From the IMG/VR virus record IMGVR_UViG_2917398303_000003: a DNA stretch of 36,377 nt. One strand, written 5' to 3'. The position numbers and the translations under genes were made by a program. The stretch comes from a virus (Duplodnaviria > Heunggongvirae > Uroviricota > Caudoviricetes). The notes beneath the pieces are model-generated. The model had not been told where the DNA came from. It did no database searches and worked only from the letters and a program-made list of their open reading frames with translations. The stretch's first letter is position 1. Each line of letters begins with the position of its first letter. Below are positions 1 to 7,264 of this stretch, piece after piece.

Positions 1-1053
1 TTACGGGGTAATGCCAACCGCTGCCGCCACTTTGTCGCCACTTGGCAGCGTTGCCAGAGGATTGAAACGGAGCGCCGTTTCCAGATGATCCGGTGCCAGA
101 TGTGCGTAACGCATAGTCATTTTTATATCGTGGTGTCCGAGAATTTTTTGTAAGGCCAGAATGTTTCCACCCGACATCATGAAGTGCGCCGCAAACGTAT
201 GGCGCAGAACGTGTGTGAGTTGACCGCGAGGGAGCACGATAGACGTTTTTTCCATCACGGATAAAAATTGAAAATAGCAATCTGTGAAGAAATTGAACCC
301 ATCAAGCGCCATGATCTCTTCGTAAAGCTCTTTACTGATAGGGATGCTTCTGTTTTTCTTCCCCTTCGTTCTGACAAAGGTAATTCGGTATTTGGTCACC
401 TGTGAGCGGGTAAGATTTACGGCTTCACGCCATCGTGCGCCTGTGCTTAAGCATATCTTAACTACCAGTGCCAGAATTGGGTCCTGACGTTTGCAATCAG
501 CCAGCAATTCAACAATCTGCTCATGGGTAAGCCATGCCATCTCTTTTTCTGCGATGGTGAATTTTCGCATGTTCTCCAGTGGGTTCGGATACGACCATTC
601 GCCCAGACGGGATAGTTCGCTAAAAACACTACTTAGATAGCTTTGCTCCAGGTTAATGGTGACCGGGCTGGCTCCTTTCTTCCATTTCTCGCTGAAGTAG
701 ATCTCACCTGTCAGTCGTTTATCTCGATAATGGGCAAACATTTTAGATGTGAGATCGGTTGCAAGGGGATTGCCCAGAGCGTCAACCATCAGCAGCAATT
801 TGTCATAGACATGCTGCCCAGCAGTCAGAGATTTACCATGTAGTTTGAACCATAGTTCAACTACGTCTTTCAGTGTTCGACGATCCACTGATTCACCCAG
901 CCAGGGCTTTGCTTCGGTTTCTTCCATCGTGTGGCGCTCAAAAGCCAGAGCTTCGCCTTTGGTGGCGAATTGTTTACGCACACGACGCCCACTGCGTCCG
1001 GCGGGGTAACATTCGCAAAGCCATTTTCCTGTGGTGAGTTTTCGTACTGCCAT
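1..1053 (-). CDS. int: Tyrosine integrase (P2/186 Int family)
   Basis: ORF track 1..1131 (-). Start placed at the internal Met (MAVRKLTTGKW...) at 1053, which has a GGAGGG RBS 7 nt upstream; stop is at 1-3. C-terminal catalytic region HVLRHTFAAHF...GHHDIKMTMRYAHL fits the tyrosine-recombinase R-H-R-Y signature. Position at the prophage end next to cI. Confidence 0.9.
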   Translation of the reverse strand: MAVRKLTTGKWLCECYPAGRSGRRVRKQFATKGEALAFERHTMEETEAKPWLGESVDRRTLKDVVELWFKLHGKSLTAGQHVYDKLLLMVDALGNPLATDLTSKMFAHYRDKRLTGEIYFSEKWKKGASPVTINLEQSYLSSVFSELSRLGEWSYPNPLENMRKFTIAEKEMAWLTHEQIVELLADCKRQDPILALVVKICLSTGARWREAVNLTRSQVTKYRITFVRTKGKKNRSIPISKELYEEIMALDGFNFFTDCYFQFLSVMEKTSIVLPRGQLTHVLRHTFAAHFMMSGGNILALQKILGHHDIKMTMRYAHLAPDHLETALRFNPLATLPSGDKVAAAVGITP

Positions 1054-1239
1054 AAAAAATGCCCTCCAGTAGAGAGCATTTTTACTGTATGTATAACCAG
1101 TGTCAATGTATGAAATCCTGCGACCATACATCTCACTGAAGCCATAATGAAGTTAGCTATTTTTTGCTATGTGAGTATGTGACTTTTGCGGTTAGCCTGC
1201 GGCTCATTGTTATATTAGGCGCAGATATAAAAGCAAAAT

Positions 1240-1431
1240 TTATCGCGAGTTTTTAGTACAGATTTTTTTTGATTTACTAATAGTTCCATCATTGCAAACG
1301 AACTTTCCATCGGAGGTACAGTGAGAGACACCTCCCTTTTTCCCAGAACAAGGATAATTTTTAGCATAGGTAGTTAGTGGGTTTAATAACAAAGAGCATG
1401 ATAAAACCACAAAAAATACCTTACCAAGCAT
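1240..1431 (-). CDS. Small secreted basic Cys-rich peptide (63 aa, predicted signal peptide); cargo between cI and int
   Basis: ORF track. N-terminal [23 protein letters not shown] looks like a Sec signal peptide. Predicted mature part is ~40 aa, Lys-rich with 4 Cys. GGAGG RBS 5 nt upstream of the ATG. Starts 16 nt after the cI stop on the same strand. Region is AT-rich by eye. Confidence 0.5.
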
Positions 1432-1446
1432 AGTTTCCTCCCGGTA

Positions 1447-2103
1447 TTACCTAACGTACTTAATTGTTAAACTTATAATTTTACCAATTATTTCAACATC
1501 TTCTATCTTGCACTCGAAGGCTCTGTTTCCACCTTCAACGAAGATTCTTCCACCGGGTAAACGAGTAATGTCGCGGATTGTTATTTCGCCATCAATACTT
1601 ATTACCCATTTACCATCACGTATATCATCAAATTCTTTATCACAAATAAATTCAGAATTGTTATCTGTGATGACAAAAGGTTTTTTAAACGTAGAGGGTA
1701 GAAATCCCTTATCAAAAATATAAAAACCGTCTTCACGCAAGGCACCATCAGATAATACATATTTAGCAACTTCCATAGTATTTGTATTACCTGAAGTTTG
1801 CTTTGAACCATGTCCAGTTGTGAGCCAATTAAGCGAGGTGCCCGTTTCAAGGGCGCACTGGATTACCCAATCTGCCGGAAAAATATCACGCATATAGCGC
1901 GTTGCCATGGTGCTCTTAGAAACACCTAAATGATCACAGAGAGCCTGACGGGTACCGAACCCATATGCTTCAACCAAACGTTCTATGGCTTTCTTACCGC
2001 CGCTATTGAAATCCACATGTCCTCCAAAGAAATCCAAAATTCGTTGACAGATTCCAAAAGCGATCTTAAAGTTGAACCAGAAGTGTTCTTTTGGAGCCTT
2101 CAC
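1447..2103 (-). CDS. cI: CI-type immunity repressor (HTH); start codon uncertain (GTG at 2103 per track, or GTG at 2016 giving 189 aa)
   Basis: ORF track. HTH-like segment AIERLVEAYGFGTRQALCDHLGVSKSTMATRY. Divergent from apl/cII in the 186-type switch arrangement. An alternative in-frame GTG at 2016 is preceded by GGAGGA. Confidence 0.75.
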   Translation of the reverse strand: MKAPKEHFWFNFKIAFGICQRILDFFGGHVDFNSGGKKAIERLVEAYGFGTRQALCDHLGVSKSTMATRYMRDIFPADWVIQCALETGTSLNWLTTGHGSKQTSGNTNTMEVAKYVLSDGALREDGFYIFDKGFLPSTFKKPFVITDNNSEFICDKEFDDIRDGKWVISIDGEITIRDITRLPGGRIFVEGGNRAFECKIEDVEIIGKIISLTIKYVR

Positions 2104-2161
2104 TACTAATCACGACAAACAACGGCTCGCCACAAGCCATATCTAGAAGGAATGTTGCCTT
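2104..2161. promoter_or_regulatory. Lysis/lysogeny switch region between divergent cI and apl (expected pR/pL promoters and operators)
   Basis: Inferred from position between the repressor gene (-) and the apl/cII operon (+). Individual promoter hexamers and operators were not resolved. Confidence 0.4.
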
Positions 2162-2365
2162 ATGACACCTAACATTTCAATTACTCTGAATACACCACAT
2201 GTCACAATCGAACGTTATAGCGAACTGACTGGCCTTTCTATTGATACGATTAACGACATGTTGGCTGATGGCCGACTACCTCGTCATCGTCTTCGTAAAG
2301 ACAAAAAACGTGAAAAGGTAATGATTAACCTGGCTGCTCTGACTGTTGATGCTTTGTCTGCTTAA
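2162..2365 (+). CDS. apl: Apl/Cox-like small HTH excisionase and transcriptional regulator
   Basis: ORF track (67 aa). First gene of the rightward early operon, immediately upstream of cII as in phage 186. Basic C-terminus ([15 protein letters not shown]). Confidence 0.55.
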
Positions 2366-5084: not shown

Positions 5085-7264
5085 GTCATGCCGATATGAG
5101 CGACTCTAGCGGCTTTAACGAGGCCGCTGCAGCATTTTCATGGAACGGCCCGAAAAAGGCCATAAACCCTTATCTGGACCCGGCGGAAGTTGCGCCGGTT
5201 TCTGCGCTTTCAAACCTGATCACTCTGTATGCTGCCGATAACGAGCAGGAACAGCTGCGCCGCGAGGAATTGAGTGAACAGGTCTGGGAGCGTTATTTCT
5301 TTAATGAATCCCGTGATCCTGTCCAGCGCGAAATGGAGCAGGATAAGCTCATTAGTCGGGCAAAGCTGGCGCATGAGCAGCAGCGTTTTAACCCGGACAT
5401 GGTCATTCTGGCGGACGTCAGCGCCCAGCCCACCCACATCAGCAAGCCGCTGATGCAACGTATCGAATACTTCAGCAGCCTGGGCAGGCCAAAGGCTTAT
5501 TCCCGCTATTTGCGTGAGACGATTAAGCCATGTCTGGAGCGACTGGATTGTGTACGCGACAGTCAGCTATCTACTTCTTTCCGTTTTATGGCAAGCCATC
5601 AAGGGCTGGAGGGCCTGCTGATCCTGCCTGAAATGAGTCAGGATCAGGTGAAACGCCTGTCCACCCTGGTAGCTGCGCATATGAGCATGTGTCTTGAGGC
5701 CGCTTGTGGTGATTTGTATACCAACGATGACGTAAAGCCAGAAGAAATCCGCAAGACATGGGAAAAAGTGGCAGCGGAAACCCTGCGTCTGGATGTTATC
5801 CCGCCTGCGTTTGAGAAACTTCGTCGGAAAAGAAACCGCCGCAAACCTGTGCCCTATGAACTCATACCGGGTTCGCTGGCACGTATGCTTTGCGCCGACT
5901 GGTGGTATCGAAAATTGTGGAAGATGCGTTGCGAATGGCGGGAAGAGCAGTTGCGCGCTGTCTGCCTGGTCAGCAAAAAAGCATCTCCTTATGTCAGCTA
6001 TGAAGCCGTGATGCATAAACGTGAGCAGCGCCGTAAGTCGCTGGAGTTTTTCCGTTCTCATGAACTGGTGAACGAAGACGGCGACACGCTGGACATGGAG
6101 GATGTGGTAAACGCCAGCAGCAGCAACCCTGCGCATCGCCGCAATGAGATGATGGCCTGTGTTAAAGGTCTGGAACTTATCGCGGAAATGCGCGGTGACT
6201 GCGCCGTTTTCTACACCATCACCTGTCCGTCACGTTTCCATTCCACGCTAAATAACGGCAGGCCCAACCCGACCTGGACAAATGCGACGGTAAGACAAAG
6301 CAGTGATTATTTGGTCGGCATGTTTGCTGCATTTCGTAAGGCGATGCACAAAGCCGGATTGCGCTGGTATGGCGTGCGGGTGGCTGAGCCGCATCATGAC
6401 GGTACAGTTCACTGGCACCTGTTGTGTTTTATGCGCAAAAAAGACCGCCGCGCCATCACTGCATTACTGCGTAAGTTTGCCATCCGTGAAGACCGCGAGG
6501 AGCTGGGCAATAACACGGGGCCGCGCTTTAAGTCTGAGTTGATTAACCCGCGCAAAGGAACGCCGACAAGCTACATCGCGAAATATATCAGTAAGAACAT
6601 TGACGGGCGTGGTCTGGCTAGCGAGATCAGCAAGGAAACGGGTAAATCCCTGCGTGATAACGCTGAATACGTGAATGCCTGGGCGTCTCTGCATCGTGTT
6701 CAGCAATTCCGCTTCTTTGGTATTCCGGGGCGTCAGGCTTATCGTGAACTGCGATTGCTGGCTGGTCAGGCGGCAAGGCAGCAGGGTGACAAAAAAGCAG
6801 GTGCGCCGGTACTGGATAACCCACGCCTTGATGCCATCCTGGCTGCTGCTGATGCTGGTTGTTTTGCCACCTACATCATGAAGCAGGGGGGCGTACTGGT
6901 TCCCCGCAAATATCACCTCATCAGAACCGCTTATGAAATCAACGAAGAGCCGACCGCCTATGGTGATCACGGCATTCGTATTTATGGCATCTGGTCACCC
7001 ATTGCAGAGGGCAAGATCTGTACTCATGCAGTGAAGTGGAAAATGGTTCGTAAGGCCGTTGACGTTAAGGAGGCGGCAGCCGACCAGGGCGCTTGCGCCC
7101 CTTGGACTCGTGGCAATAACTGTCCCCTTGGACTCGTGGCAATAACTGTCCCCTTGCTGAAAATTTGTACCAACAAGGGAAAGACAAATCAGCTGATGGG
7201 GATACCAGAACGGATATCACCCGTATGGATGACAAGGAGTTGCACGATTACCTGCACAGTATGA
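5081..7264 (+). CDS. A: Replication initiation protein A (rolling-circle HUH endonuclease), reading frame interrupted near the 3' end
   Basis: ORF track (727 aa). HUH-like motif TVHWHLLCF and paired tyrosines YIAKYISK. Start overlaps the dam stop (ATGA). Position matches P2 gene A. The last ~55 codons are read through a 26-bp tandem duplication and look frameshifted. Confidence 0.85.
7101..7152 (+). repeat. Exact 26-bp direct tandem duplication (2 copies of cttggactcgtggcaataactgtccc) inside the 3' part of gene A
   Basis: Read directly: 7101..7126 and 7127..7152 are identical, followed by a partial third copy (cttg). Confidence 0.9.

What the first reader, a model, noticed from the sequence alone, without database searches (positions are those of the whole stretch)
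1132..1446. Small secreted Cys-rich basic peptide gene between cI and int
P2 has no gene between its repressor and integrase genes. Here a 63-aa ORF with a strong RBS (GGAGG) starts 16 nt after the cI stop on the same strand, so it is probably co-transcribed with the repressor and expressed in the lysogen. The product has a convincing signal peptide and a ~40-aa Lys-rich mature part with 4 Cys. That profile fits a periplasmic or secreted peptide, for example a lysogenic-conversion factor, exclusion factor or bacteriocin-like peptide.
Basis: partly seen in the sequence, partly recalled or inferred. Interest (0 to 1): 0.5.

Follow-up and report, generated by a model that had tools for sequence, protein, structure and literature searches.

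The report
YdcA-family periplasmic mini-protein gene after cI
The small gene between the repressor and integrase of this P2/186-like prophage is real and under strong selection, but it is already catalogued as a 'YdcA family' exported mini-protein of unknown function carried by about one in eight complete E. coli genomes, so it is an ordinary uncharacterised prophage cargo gene.

Summary
A 63-codon ORF lies at 1240..1431 on the minus strand. A GGGAGG ribosome-binding site precedes it, and only 15 nt separate it from the cI stop codon, with int downstream.

It is a real gene. Among E. coli alleles, 14 of 16 polymorphic sites are synonymous third-position changes (pN/pS about 0.03-0.08).

It is not new. 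It passes the curated cut-off of NCBIfam NF007463 (the PRK10040/YdcA group) and matches phrog_6000 and PF27300. RefSeq annotates it as 'hypothetical' or 'YdcA family protein' in about 650 of 5,426 complete E. coli genomes, including E. coli C and BL21-derived strains.

The product has a Sec signal peptide (cleavage TYA|K). The mature part is 40 aa, has a net charge of +7 and carries four invariant Cys.

The cI-int junction is a variable cargo slot. It is empty in P2, 186 and RE-2010, and holds defence genes in close relatives. YdcA-family genes recur downstream of the immunity repressor in P2-like prophages of Escherichia, Yersinia, Haemophilus and about ten other species.

The only structural relative is Dis2, an outer-membrane-facing protein of the Legionella Dot/Icm secretion system, and that link is suggestive rather than proven.

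Function is untested. My best guess is a lysogen-expressed periplasmic factor acting at the outer membrane. The bacteriocin reading is not supported.

The parts
1240..1431 (-). YdcA-family CDS: 63 codons plus a TAA stop at 1240..1242
   Evidence: ORF list. NCBIfam NF007463 scores 116.1 bits against a cut-off of 93. phrog_6000 matches at E = 4.6e-34. pN/pS is 0.03-0.08. 14 of 16 polymorphic sites are synonymous.
1363..1431 (-). Signal peptide, residues 1-23: n-region MLGK, h-region [12 protein letters not shown], c-region NPLTTYA, predicted SPase I cleavage TYA|K
   Evidence: The best 10-residue hydrophobic window has mean Kyte-Doolittle 2.73. Ala at -1 is nearly invariant in the family and -3 is a small residue. 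The signal-peptide sequence varies freely between homologs while the mature part does not. AF2 predicts a helix at residues 3-14. The cleavage site is inferred; SignalP was not run.
1243..1362 (-). Mature 40-aa domain [40 protein letters not shown]: four invariant Cys, net charge +7, pI 9.6
   Evidence: The family alignment has invariant P, C, S, K, G, G, C, F, C, G, S, S, K, C. The AF2 mature-only model has pLDDT 79 and a beta-hairpin at mature residues 12-15 and 21-23. No amino-acid change occurs in the Cys-containing core among the E. coli alleles of this 63-aa type.
1437..1442 (-). Shine-Dalgarno GGGAGG, 5 nt before the ATG, inside the 15-nt cI-ORF spacer (1432..1446)
   Evidence: Read directly from the sequence.
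1114..1239 (-). 3' non-coding part of the cargo cassette, with no canonical intrinsic terminator
   Evidence: The scan finds no terminator on the minus strand here. The sequence shared with phages that carry other cargo stops at window position 1113. GC of the 1054..1239 spacer that contains this part is 0.376, against 0.503 for the whole window.
1447..2016 (-). 186-type immunity repressor cI (upstream gene of the inferred operon); GTG start at 2016 as annotated in RefSeq
   Evidence: PF07022 at 3e-31 and PF16452 at 3e-28. RefSeq annotates a 570-nt CDS as 'phage repressor protein CI'.
1..1053 (-). Tyrosine integrase int (downstream gene of the inferred operon)
   Evidence: PF24624 and PF00589. 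96-97% DNA identity to the int genes of phages 813R9, KP12 and 4LV2017. The RefSeq-annotated start corresponds to window 1053.
1055..1083 (-). 13-bp hairpin followed by a U-run immediately before the int AUG. The int Shine-Dalgarno (1062..1067) lies in its 3' arm. It belongs to the int module, not to the cassette.
   Evidence: Sequence and RNA fold (z = -3.4 for the 206-nt fold that contains it). It lies inside the segment shared with phages that lack the ORF.

Best explanation
This is a cargo gene embedded in the lysogenic (repressor) operon of a 186-like Peduoviridae prophage. It encodes a member of the YdcA family of exported mini-proteins.

The proposed sequence of events is as follows. 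(1) In the lysogen, the pL transcript that makes CI reads on through the 15-nt spacer. The ORF is translated from its own GGGAGG site, and transcription continues towards int. (2) The 23-residue Sec signal peptide takes the product to the periplasm and is cut after TYA. (3) The 40-residue mature domain, a beta-hairpin core with four invariant Cys, is stapled by two disulfides. (4) Being strongly cationic, and resembling one lobe of Legionella Dis2, which sits on the outer-membrane-facing side of a secretion machine and contacts lipoproteins, it most likely docks on the periplasmic face of the outer membrane or on an outer-membrane (lipo)protein. (5) This changes an envelope property that benefits the lysogen. 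The most probable benefit is exclusion of incoming phage or other mobile DNA at the envelope. The alternative is envelope stress tolerance.

Steps 1-3 follow from the sequence anatomy and family conservation. Steps 4-5 are hypothesis. The confidence given applies to the whole chain. For 'real, YdcA-family, exported, linked to the repressor operon' alone I would say about 0.9.
For: Real gene: the ORF passes the curated cut-off of NF007463 and matches phrog_6000. All 64 homologs found have N-terminal signal-like regions, and 58 carry a precomputed PF27300 hit. pN/pS is 0.03-0.08, and 14 of 16 polymorphic sites are synonymous (Fisher p = 1e-8).

Export: signal peptides across the family have a median length of 22 aa, strong hydrophobic regions and Ala at -1, and they diverge freely, while the mature core is 76% identical on average with four invariant Cys.

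Operon position: the spacer is 15 nt with its own ribosome-binding site, and no terminator is predicted on the sense strand. The annotated lysogenic operon of 186 is cI-int-orf69, driven from pL and pE. In HP2 the homolog's ATG overlaps the cI stop.

Linkage to the repressor: the order cI -> ydcA-like -> int recurs in Escherichia, three Yersinia species and Buttiauxella, where a small secreted ORF lies between cI and the homolog. In some E. coli prophages a KAP NTPase sits between the ORF and int, yet the ORF stays attached to cI. In ten other species, mostly betaproteobacteria, an HTH_3 repressor-like gene lies upstream on the same strand; in most of them the P2 tail gene D is convergent downstream.

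Cargo slot: the junction is empty in P2, 186 and RE-2010. It holds PD-Lambda-1 in 813R9 and PDC-S20 in E. coli S21.

Outer-membrane hint: Dis2 is the only PDB relative. phmmer gives 3e-5 for the full protein and 2.2e-4 for the mature part, and Foldseek ranks it first with TM 0.62 and 38% identity. Dis2 faces the outer membrane and contacts the lipoproteins DotC, DotD and DotK (PMC8486379, PMC12716638). Chromosomal paralogs in Citrobacter and Atlantibacter lie next to a TonB-dependent receptor, DUF2946 and PepSY_TM genes.
Against: There is no direct evidence of transcription, translation, export or phenotype. The ORF matches no model of known or candidate defence systems in PADLOC.

Most family members (about 55-60 of the 80 species-level loci) are not in recognisable P2-like prophages. 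A core chromosomal paralog exists in E. coli, and its only reported phenotypes are sensitivity to 3-hydroxypropionate and induction at pH 5 (PMC7642389). That fits a housekeeping envelope role at least as well as an anti-phage role.

The hairpin and U-run at the int start could terminate part of the transcript. It lies downstream of the ORF, so it does not affect expression of the ORF.
Confidence: 0.5

Rival explanations
1. The gene is a host-fitness moron with no role in phage-phage conflict. On this view the prophage carries an extra copy of a housekeeping periplasmic envelope factor (a YdcA paralog) that improves tolerance of acid, organic acids or metal stress, or assists an outer-membrane transporter. 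It is kept because it benefits the lysogen directly.
For: E. coli has a core chromosomal paralog, ydcA, in the aldA-cybB-ydcA-trg neighbourhood. A ydcA deletion is sensitive to 3-hydroxypropionate, and the gene is reported to be induced at pH 5 under YdcI (PMC7642389). Chromosomal homologs in Citrobacter and Atlantibacter sit in a cluster of TonB-dependent receptor, DUF2946 and PepSY_TM genes. Most of the 80 species-level loci are not phage-linked. There is no PADLOC hit.
Against: The prophage copy belongs to a distinct subfamily. It passes NF007463, but scores only 68 bits against the core-YdcA model NF007462, whose cut-off is 118. The slot it occupies otherwise holds anti-phage systems. Its repeated placement directly behind immunity repressors of two different types suggests a function tied to lysogeny.
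Confidence: 0.3
2. It is a secreted bacteriocin- or microcin-like toxin, or another extracellular peptide, used in competition with non-lysogens.
For: The product is small, cationic, Cys-rich and exported. There are weak PDB similarities, driven by composition, to Pin-II proteinase inhibitors, with E = 0.06-1.
Against: The leader is a Sec/SPase I type, not a double-glycine leader, and there is no route across the outer membrane. The neighbours are cI and int, so there is no adjacent immunity, maturation or ABC-export gene. Homologs occur as lone core chromosomal genes without an immunity partner. The very high conservation of the mature core across alpha-, beta- and gamma-proteobacteria is not what is expected of a toxin under diversifying selection.
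Confidence: 0.04
3. It is a component or modulator of type IV secretion or conjugation, as the UniRef name 'Conjugal transfer protein' and the Dis2 similarity might suggest. For example, it could dock on a T4SS outer-membrane complex and block or assist DNA transfer.
For: UniRef names for the exact protein cluster include 'Conjugal transfer protein'. Dis2, a Dot/Icm outer-membrane-cap protein, is the only PDB relative.
Against: No T4SS genes lie next to any copy I examined. Acinetobacter p3ABAYE and a Rhizobium plasmid carry it in accessory regions, and the E. coli 'plasmid' hits are the same prophage. The window ORFs that matched related loci are P2-type phage genes: int, cI, cII, replication gene A, lysozyme, baseplate V, and tail genes including T, U and D. 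Dis2 has two lobes, whereas this protein has one.
Confidence: 0.06
4. It is a spurious ORF or a decaying remnant: a chance reading frame in AT-rich spacer DNA between cI and int.
For: The ORF is short and lies in an AT-rich interval (GC 0.349). The local Pfam-A copy has no match for it.
Against: It passes a curated family cut-off. Polymorphism is 14 synonymous sites against 2 amino-acid-changing sites. A full-length ORF with the family motif was found in 79 of the 80 IMG/VR copies; the 80th (L105) is cut by the contig end 3 nt after the 189-nt match. There are 461 family representatives in a library of 1.8 billion proteins.
Confidence: 0.01

Closest known systems
E. coli YdcA and the NCBIfam PRK10040 group (NF007462 / NF007463 / NF007464; Pfam PF27300; PHROG 6000)
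   Same: The architecture is the same: a signal peptide of about 22 aa, then a basic domain of about 35-40 aa with the motif PCSGKKGG(V/I)SHC...GKF(V/I)C(N/K)DG(S/T)xSxSKKxC and four invariant Cys. The window protein passes the NF007463 cut-off. RefSeq already labels some identical or near-identical copies 'YdcA family protein'.
   Different: It is not the orthologue of core ydcA. It scores 68 bits against NF007462 (cut-off 118), and 30 of 53 aligned residues are identical. It is prophage-borne, directly behind cI, rather than in the aldA-cybB-ydcA-trg chromosomal locus. The family has no established function.
Legionella pneumophila Dis2 (Lpg0823), Dot/Icm T4SS outer-membrane cap, PDB 7MUC/7MUD chain AN
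   Same: It is the only PDB relative by sequence, and both Dis2 lobes align to the motif CS.K.GG...C...G..VCN(D/N)G..S. It is the top Foldseek hit for both models: TM 0.62, 38% identity and probability 0.85 for the mature-only model. Both proteins are small, exported and Cys-rich. In Dis2 the Cys form disulfides, and the protein faces the outer membrane.
Repressor-operon or lysogeny-module cargo genes of temperate phages: lambda rexAB co-transcribed with cI, 186 orf69 at the end of the cI-int operon, and P2 old, tin and fun(Z) (rexAB and the P2 genes are from general knowledge)
   Same: The gene is non-essential, variably present and AT-rich, placed so that it is expressed from the prophage in the lysogen. 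It occupies a slot that holds defence systems in sister phages (PD-Lambda-1, PDC-S20).
   Different: Those examples are cytoplasmic or inner-membrane proteins with demonstrated exclusion phenotypes, whereas this is a 40-aa soluble periplasmic domain with no phenotype known. It also lacks the promoter and terminator of its own that define a classical 'moron'.
Envelope-acting superinfection-exclusion proteins: T5 Llp and phi80 Cor lipoproteins, T4 Sp and Imm, Streptococcus TP-J34 Ltp (from general knowledge)
   Same: These are small phage-encoded proteins exported beyond the cytoplasmic membrane. In a lysogen or infected cell they act at the envelope to block entry of further phage.
   Different: There is no sequence similarity. 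There is no conserved lipobox: the Cys at residue 12 is not conserved and lies too close to the N-terminus. No receptor or target has been identified. The resemblance is purely functional analogy and is untested.

Membership tests
YdcA family (NCBIfam NF007463 / PRK10040.1-2; PF27300; phrog_6000) | The HMM score is above the curated whole-protein cut-off | tested here: met
   NF007463 scores 116.1 bits against a cut-off of 93, E = 4.2e-34, covering profile positions 1-58 of 58. phrog_6000 matches at E = 4.6e-34. The cluster representative, which is 97% identical to the window protein, and 57 other homologs carry a precomputed PF27300 hit.
YdcA family (NCBIfam NF007463 / PRK10040.1-2; PF27300; phrog_6000) | An N-terminal Sec-type signal peptide with a small residue at -3 and Ala at -1 | tested here: met
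   The cleavage context is TYA|K. The n-region has charge +1 and the h-region has mean Kyte-Doolittle 2.73. Ala at -1 is nearly invariant in 25 aligned members. This is a rule-based check; SignalP was not available.
YdcA family (NCBIfam NF007463 / PRK10040.1-2; PF27300; phrog_6000) | The conserved core motif with four invariant Cys | tested here: met
   P27, C28, S29, K32, G33, G34, C38, F44, C46, G49, S52, S54, K55 and C58 are invariant in alignment A1.
Core E. coli YdcA equivalog (NF007462) | The score is above the equivalog cut-off | tested here: not met
   68 bits against a cut-off of 118. The protein is a paralogous subfamily, not the ydcA orthologue.
Dis2 (Lpg0823)-like T4SS outer-membrane-cap protein | Significant similarity of the mature domain in sequence and fold | tested here: inconclusive
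   [not shown]
Dis2 (Lpg0823)-like T4SS outer-membrane-cap protein | A two-lobed architecture and association with a Dot/Icm-type T4SS | tested here: not met
   The protein is a single 40-aa domain. Its neighbours are cI and int, and no T4SS genes lie near the plasmid or phage copies examined.
Phage moron / lysogenic-conversion cargo | Present between conserved genes but absent from close relatives, with atypical base composition | tested here: met
   The slot is empty in P2, 186 and RE-2010 and holds other cargo in 813R9 and 4LV2017, whose int genes are 96-97% identical to this one. GC is 0.349 against 0.503 for the window.
Phage moron / lysogenic-conversion cargo | A promoter and terminator of its own (the classical moron definition) | tested here: not met
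   No sigma-70-like promoter is predicted upstream of the ORF and no intrinsic terminator downstream on the sense strand. The gene appears to be embedded in the cI operon.
Phage moron / lysogenic-conversion cargo | Expression in the lysogen, with a phenotype conferred on the host | not testable with these tools
   Expression is inferred only from the gene's position behind cI and the 186 operon annotation. No expression data were available.
Known anti-phage defence systems (PADLOC-DB 2.0) | A match to a defence-protein model | tested here: not met
   There were no hits at E <= 0.01 for the window ORF or the HP2 homolog. Occupants of the same slot in other prophages did hit: PD-Lambda-1 at 3e-120 and PDC-S20 at 1e-171.
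Bacterial lipoprotein | A conserved lipobox, [LVI][ASTVI][GAS]C, at the end of the signal peptide | tested here: not met
   'VLSC' at residues 9-12 lies too close to the N-terminus. That Cys is replaced by S, I, M, T or F in many homologs, whereas the A|K/R/N cleavage context is conserved.
Bacteriocin / microcin | A dedicated leader (double-glycine type) and linked immunity or export genes | tested here: not met
   The leader is Sec-type, and the flanking genes are cI and int.

The most novel reading that the evidence does not exclude
The YdcA-family mini-protein could be a new, minimal type of prophage-encoded envelope defence. On this reading a single 40-residue disulfide-stapled periplasmic domain, made constitutively from the repressor operon, docks on an outer-membrane lipoprotein or receptor complex, as Dis2 docks on DotC, DotD and DotK. 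This would block genome entry by superinfecting phage or by conjugative T4SS. It would also assign a function to the uncharacterised E. coli gene ydcA and to Legionella Dis2, and explain why the gene is repeatedly captured behind immunity repressors of unrelated types across Proteobacteria.
Probability: 0.15. Interest if true: 0.65.

Novelty: already known. Interest (0 to 1): 0.3.

Why it matters
If the gene does act in the lysogen's envelope, it would give a first function to a conserved and widespread family of proteobacterial mini-proteins, with 461 cluster representatives at 50% identity. That family includes the E. coli K-12 'y-gene' ydcA and probably the lobes of Legionella Dis2. It would also add a very small periplasmic effector to the repertoire of prophage lysogenic-conversion and exclusion factors.

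In practical terms, the same gene is present, 100% identical over the 315-nt interval, in E. coli C and in BL21-derived laboratory strains, so expression and knockout tests are cheap. As things stand it is an already-annotated hypothetical protein in a known cargo hotspot. It is useful context for annotating P2/186-like prophages, and HP2 and S2 lack the annotation, but it is not a surprise to a specialist.

Tried and rejected
- The local Pfam-A copy gave only a sub-threshold chance hit, PF22906 at E = 0.068. The family model PF27300 is newer than that copy.
- PADLOC has no model for the ORF.
- Rfam finds nothing in 900..2300 at E <= 1. Repeat search finds nothing meaningful. There is therefore no evidence that the interval is an RNA element rather than a CDS.
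- Foldseek with the full-length model was degraded by the signal-peptide helix, so I repeated it with the mature part only.
- I followed the 'conjugal transfer protein' label from UniRef into plasmids. There is no T4SS context, and two of the E. coli 'plasmid' records examined or listed (H103, H104) are the same prophage next to rcdA-ybjJ.
- Literature: 'ydcA' in Neisseria gonococcal-island papers and in pS88 refers to unrelated genes that share the name. Searches for WP_001321204, WP_000900883, phrog_6000 and PF27300 found nothing. 'YdcA family' found one paper, held in two versions, which says only that the function is poorly characterised.
- The lipoprotein reading was rejected because the lipobox is not conserved. 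The bacteriocin reading was rejected because there is no immunity or export partner and the leader is Sec-type.
- The weak NCBIfam hit to lpg1681_fam (E = 0.11) and the Pin-II proteinase-inhibitor hits (E >= 0.06) are Cys-rich composition noise.
Full report
**1. What is in the sequence**

The feature is a 63-codon ORF on the minus strand at 1240..1431. It encodes [63 protein letters not shown].

Upstream on the same strand is a 186-type immunity repressor. Pfam gives Phage_CI_repr at 3e-31 and Phage_CI_C at 3e-28, and the stop codon is at 1447..1449. Downstream is a tyrosine integrase, whose RefSeq-annotated start corresponds to window 1053. Across the divergent promoter region lie an apl/cox-like gene and a CII (CP76) gene. 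The regulatory region is therefore 186-like rather than P2-like.

The 15 nt between the cI stop and the ATG read TACCGGGAGGAAACT, so GGGAGG sits 5 nt before the ATG. The interval given (1132..1446) additionally contains 108 nt of non-coding 3' spacer. Its left edge is only the start of an over-long mechanical int ORF.

**2. It is a real gene under purifying selection**

Compared with E. coli alleles that are about 93% identical in DNA, the ORF shows 10-11 synonymous and 1-2 non-synonymous differences, giving pN/pS of 0.03-0.05.

Among eight distinct DNA alleles recovered from 79 IMG/VR copies, 16 sites are polymorphic. Fourteen are third-position and synonymous, and two change an amino acid (V5I in the signal peptide and K24R at mature residue 1). 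Fisher p is 1e-8. A full-length ORF with the family motif was found in 79 of the 80 copies. The 80th locus ends 3 nt after the 189-nt match, so my 192-nt scan could not recover it.

**3. It belongs to a named family and is already annotated**

The protein passes the curated cut-off of NCBIfam NF007463 (PRK10040.1-2): 116.1 bits against 93. It falls below the cut-off of the core-YdcA equivalog NF007462: 68 bits against 118. It matches phrog_6000 at E = 4.6e-34. The cluster representative, which is 97% identical to the window protein, and 57 of the other 63 homologs found carry the precomputed Pfam family PF27300, which is absent from the local Pfam copy.

The exact sequence is in the protein collection on more than 1,000 contigs. 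Sources name it 'hypothetical protein', 'YdcA family protein' or, in UniRef, 'Conjugal transfer protein'.

The 315-nt interval is found in 650 of 5,426 complete E. coli genomes, and in 590 of them at 80% coverage or more. It is 100% identical in E. coli C and in the BL21-derived strains Nico21(DE3) and B-LamR. RefSeq annotates the CDS next to 'phage repressor protein CI'.

An exhaustive profile search of 1.84 billion representatives finds 461 family clusters at E <= 1e-3. Some have two or three tandem copies of the domain.

**4. Anatomy of the product**

Across 25 aligned members the N-terminal 20-23 residues are a typical Sec signal. The n-region has charge +1 or +2, the hydrophobic core has a median Kyte-Doolittle value of 2.7, a small residue sits at -3, and Ala at -1 is nearly invariant. 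This region diverges freely in sequence.

The mature part is very different. Its mean column identity is 76%, and it has 14 invariant positions including four Cys: PCSGKKGG(V/I)SHC...GKF(V/I)C(N/K)DG(S/T)xSxSKKxC. Here cleavage is predicted after TYA. It leaves 40 residues with a net charge of +7 and a pI of 9.6.

AlphaFold2 gives a moderately confident small beta-hairpin domain. pLDDT is 79 for the mature part alone and 86-87 over mature residues 11-30.

The Cys at residue 12 lies in the signal peptide. It is not conserved and does not form a valid lipobox, so I reject the lipoprotein reading.

Export and disulfide formation are inferred from these features and have not been shown.

**5. Genomic logic: a cargo slot in the lysogenic operon**

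In phage 186 cI abuts int, and both are annotated as one pL/pE-driven lysogenic operon, cI-int-orf69. In P2 the 115 nt between C and int hold no gene. In Salmonella phage RE-2010 cI and int are contiguous.

Phages whose int is 96-97% identical to the one here carry other genes in this slot. 4LV2017 has a 349-aa hypothetical protein. 813R9 has a 558-aa protein that matches the defence system PD-Lambda-1 at 3e-120. The sequence shared with those phages ends at window position 1113, so the cassette spans roughly 1114..1446.

In some E. coli prophages a KAP-family NTPase matching the candidate defence system PDC-S20 (1e-171) sits between the ydcA-like gene and int, while the small gene stays directly behind cI. 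The int family occurs in 1,135 E. coli genomes and the ORF interval in 650.

The cassette is AT-rich: GC is 0.349 in the ORF against 0.503 for the window. The scan predicts no promoter directly upstream of the ORF and no intrinsic terminator after it on the sense strand. The gene therefore looks embedded in the cI transcript rather than being a self-contained moron.

**6. The linkage to immunity repressors recurs across distant P2-like prophages**

I examined 80 loci taken from one genome per species.

The order cI (186 type) -> ydcA-like -> int is present in two Escherichia-type contigs and three Yersinia species. A variant occurs in Buttiauxella, where another small secreted ORF lies between cI and the homolog. 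The Yersinia repressors match the window cI only weakly, at E of about 1e-29.

In ten further species the homolog lies on the same strand as an HTH_3 repressor-like gene, at a median of about 750 nt downstream of it. These include Comamonas, Iodobacter, Deefgea, Kingella and Aquabacterium. In most of them the P2 tail gene D is convergent downstream. The space between often holds another small secreted protein or lipoprotein.

In Haemophilus phages HP2 and S2 an unannotated 60-aa homolog starts on the last base of the cI stop codon. It is followed by orf1 and then int.

In total, 25 of the 80 loci share at least one protein with this window. At least about 20 of those share P2-type proteins such as tail T/U/D, replication A, cI, cII or int.

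Elsewhere the family occurs in several other settings:
- In accessory islands of siphovirus-type Moraxella and Acinetobacter phages, next to Ant/BRO genes.
- On Acinetobacter and Rhizobium plasmids in non-transfer regions.
- As chromosomal genes. One is the E. coli core locus aldA-cybB-ydcA-trg. Another is a cluster in Citrobacter and Atlantibacter made up of a TonB-dependent receptor, ydcA-like, DUF2946 and PepSY_TM.

**7. Closest structural relative**

The only solved structure with detectable similarity is chain AN of 7MUC/7MUD. This is Dis2 (Lpg0823) of the Legionella Dot/Icm outer-membrane cap.

The sequence evidence is as follows:
- The full-length query gives E = 3e-5 and the full-length profile gives 9e-6, but part of that signal comes from the signal peptides.
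- The mature peptide alone gives 2.2e-4, with both Dis2 lobes aligned.
- A mature-only profile gives 0.015.

I regard homology to a Dis2 lobe as probable (about 0.7) but not established.

According to the papers, Dis2 consists of two similar lobes pinned by five disulfides. It sits on the outer-membrane-facing surface of the cap and contacts the lipoproteins DotC, DotD and DotK. It is dispensable for assembly, with only subtle effects on translocation. It is described as having no obvious homologs outside Legionellales (PMC8486379 and PMC12716638).

**8. What it most likely does**

Two things are shown. It is a selected protein-coding gene of the YdcA family. It also sits in a variable slot directly behind the immunity repressor.

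Three things are inferred with good support: co-transcription with cI in the lysogen, Sec export, and a disulfide-stapled periplasmic domain.

The rest is hypothesis. The cationic domain would dock at the periplasmic face of the outer membrane or on an outer-membrane (lipo)protein, by analogy with Dis2 and with the TonB-receptor neighbourhood of chromosomal paralogs. That would change an envelope property that benefits the lysogen. Two observations lean towards exclusion of incoming DNA. The slot holds defence systems in sister prophages. The gene has also been captured repeatedly behind repressors of different types.

The main rival is a plain host-fitness role. The core paralog ydcA has only stress-related phenotypes reported: sensitivity to 3-hydroxypropionate and induction at pH 5 (PMC7642389). 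In addition, PADLOC has no model for this protein.

The bacteriocin reading is not supported. The leader is Sec-type, there is no export or immunity partner, and the mature domain is extremely conserved. The T4SS-component reading is not supported by any gene context I examined.

**9. Novelty and verdict**

The gene, its family and its annotation are already in public databases. What is not in the literature I could search is any function for the family, its recurrent position behind prophage repressors, or its probable relationship to Dis2.

This is an ordinary, already-catalogued prophage cargo gene of unknown function. It has modest interest, and it is cheap to test because common laboratory strains carry it.

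Noticed in passing
window 1055-1083, minus strand; int Shine-Dalgarno at 1062-1067; int ATG at 1051-1053: A 13-bp hairpin (AAAAAUGCUCUCU-ACU-GGAGGGCAUUUUU) followed by a U-run ends right at the int start codon and sequesters the int Shine-Dalgarno. It looks like an attenuator or terminator, or a translational occluder, that limits int expression from the lysogenic transcript. It lies in the segment shared with phages that carry other cargo, so it belongs to the int module.
   Followed up: partly
[not shown]
   Followed up: yes
L006 1291-2967 (phage vB_EcoM-813R9) and L094 1156-2487 (E. coli S21 prophage): The same cI-int slot holds a PD-Lambda-1 defence protein (E = 3e-120) in 813R9 and a KAP P-loop NTPase matching candidate defence system PDC-S20 (E = 1e-171) in other E. 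coli prophages. The repressor-integrase junction of 186-like prophages is therefore a defence and cargo hotspot.
   Followed up: partly
L064, L015, L017, L019, L022, L028 and L034, around position 6000 (Citrobacter and Atlantibacter chromosomes): In these chromosomes a YdcA-family gene is followed on the same strand by DUF2946, and in six of the seven loci by PepSY_TM. In L064 (Citrobacter pasteurii) a TonB-dependent receptor lies directly upstream. An OmpA-family lipoprotein lies on the opposite strand about 2 kb downstream in five of the seven loci. This hints at a role in outer-membrane transport or metal handling for the family.
   Followed up: partly
L001 3112-3876 (HP2 orf1(S)): The gene between the HP2 YdcA homolog and int encodes a 254-aa protein with a signal-peptide-like N-terminus and a tRNA_anti-like OB-fold domain (PF12869, 2.8e-13). 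It is a second exported cargo protein in the same lysogenic operon.
   Followed up: no
P0079 (197 aa, 3 matched stretches); P0080-P0083, P0087 and P0088 (127-226 aa, 2 stretches); P0056, P0057, P0060 and P0062 (about 101-105 aa): Some family members carry two or three tandem YdcA domains, or, in the case of the roughly 105-aa proteins, a second Cys-rich C-terminal region. This parallels the two-lobed architecture of Legionella Dis2.
   Followed up: no
L008 (JAEWTL010000113.1, labelled 'MAG: Bacillota bacterium'): A 3-kb contig assigned to a Bacillota MAG carries the E. coli-type cI-ydcA-int module, with the YdcA-family protein 98% identical to the window's. This is almost certainly a binning or contamination artefact.
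   Followed up: no
window 1-1131, minus strand: The mechanical int ORF extends 78 nt upstream of the start that RefSeq annotates (1053). The window begins exactly at the int stop codon, whereas in integrated copies RefSeq ends int 36 nt further in. That is consistent with the attP core overlapping the 3' end of int.
   Followed up: no
L010 (Buttiauxella), L018, L052 and L072: the ORFs immediately upstream of the ydcA homolog: In several P2-like prophages the space between the repressor and the YdcA homolog holds another small protein with a signal peptide or lipobox and no Pfam match. The repressor-downstream slot seems to collect exported proteins.
   Followed up: no
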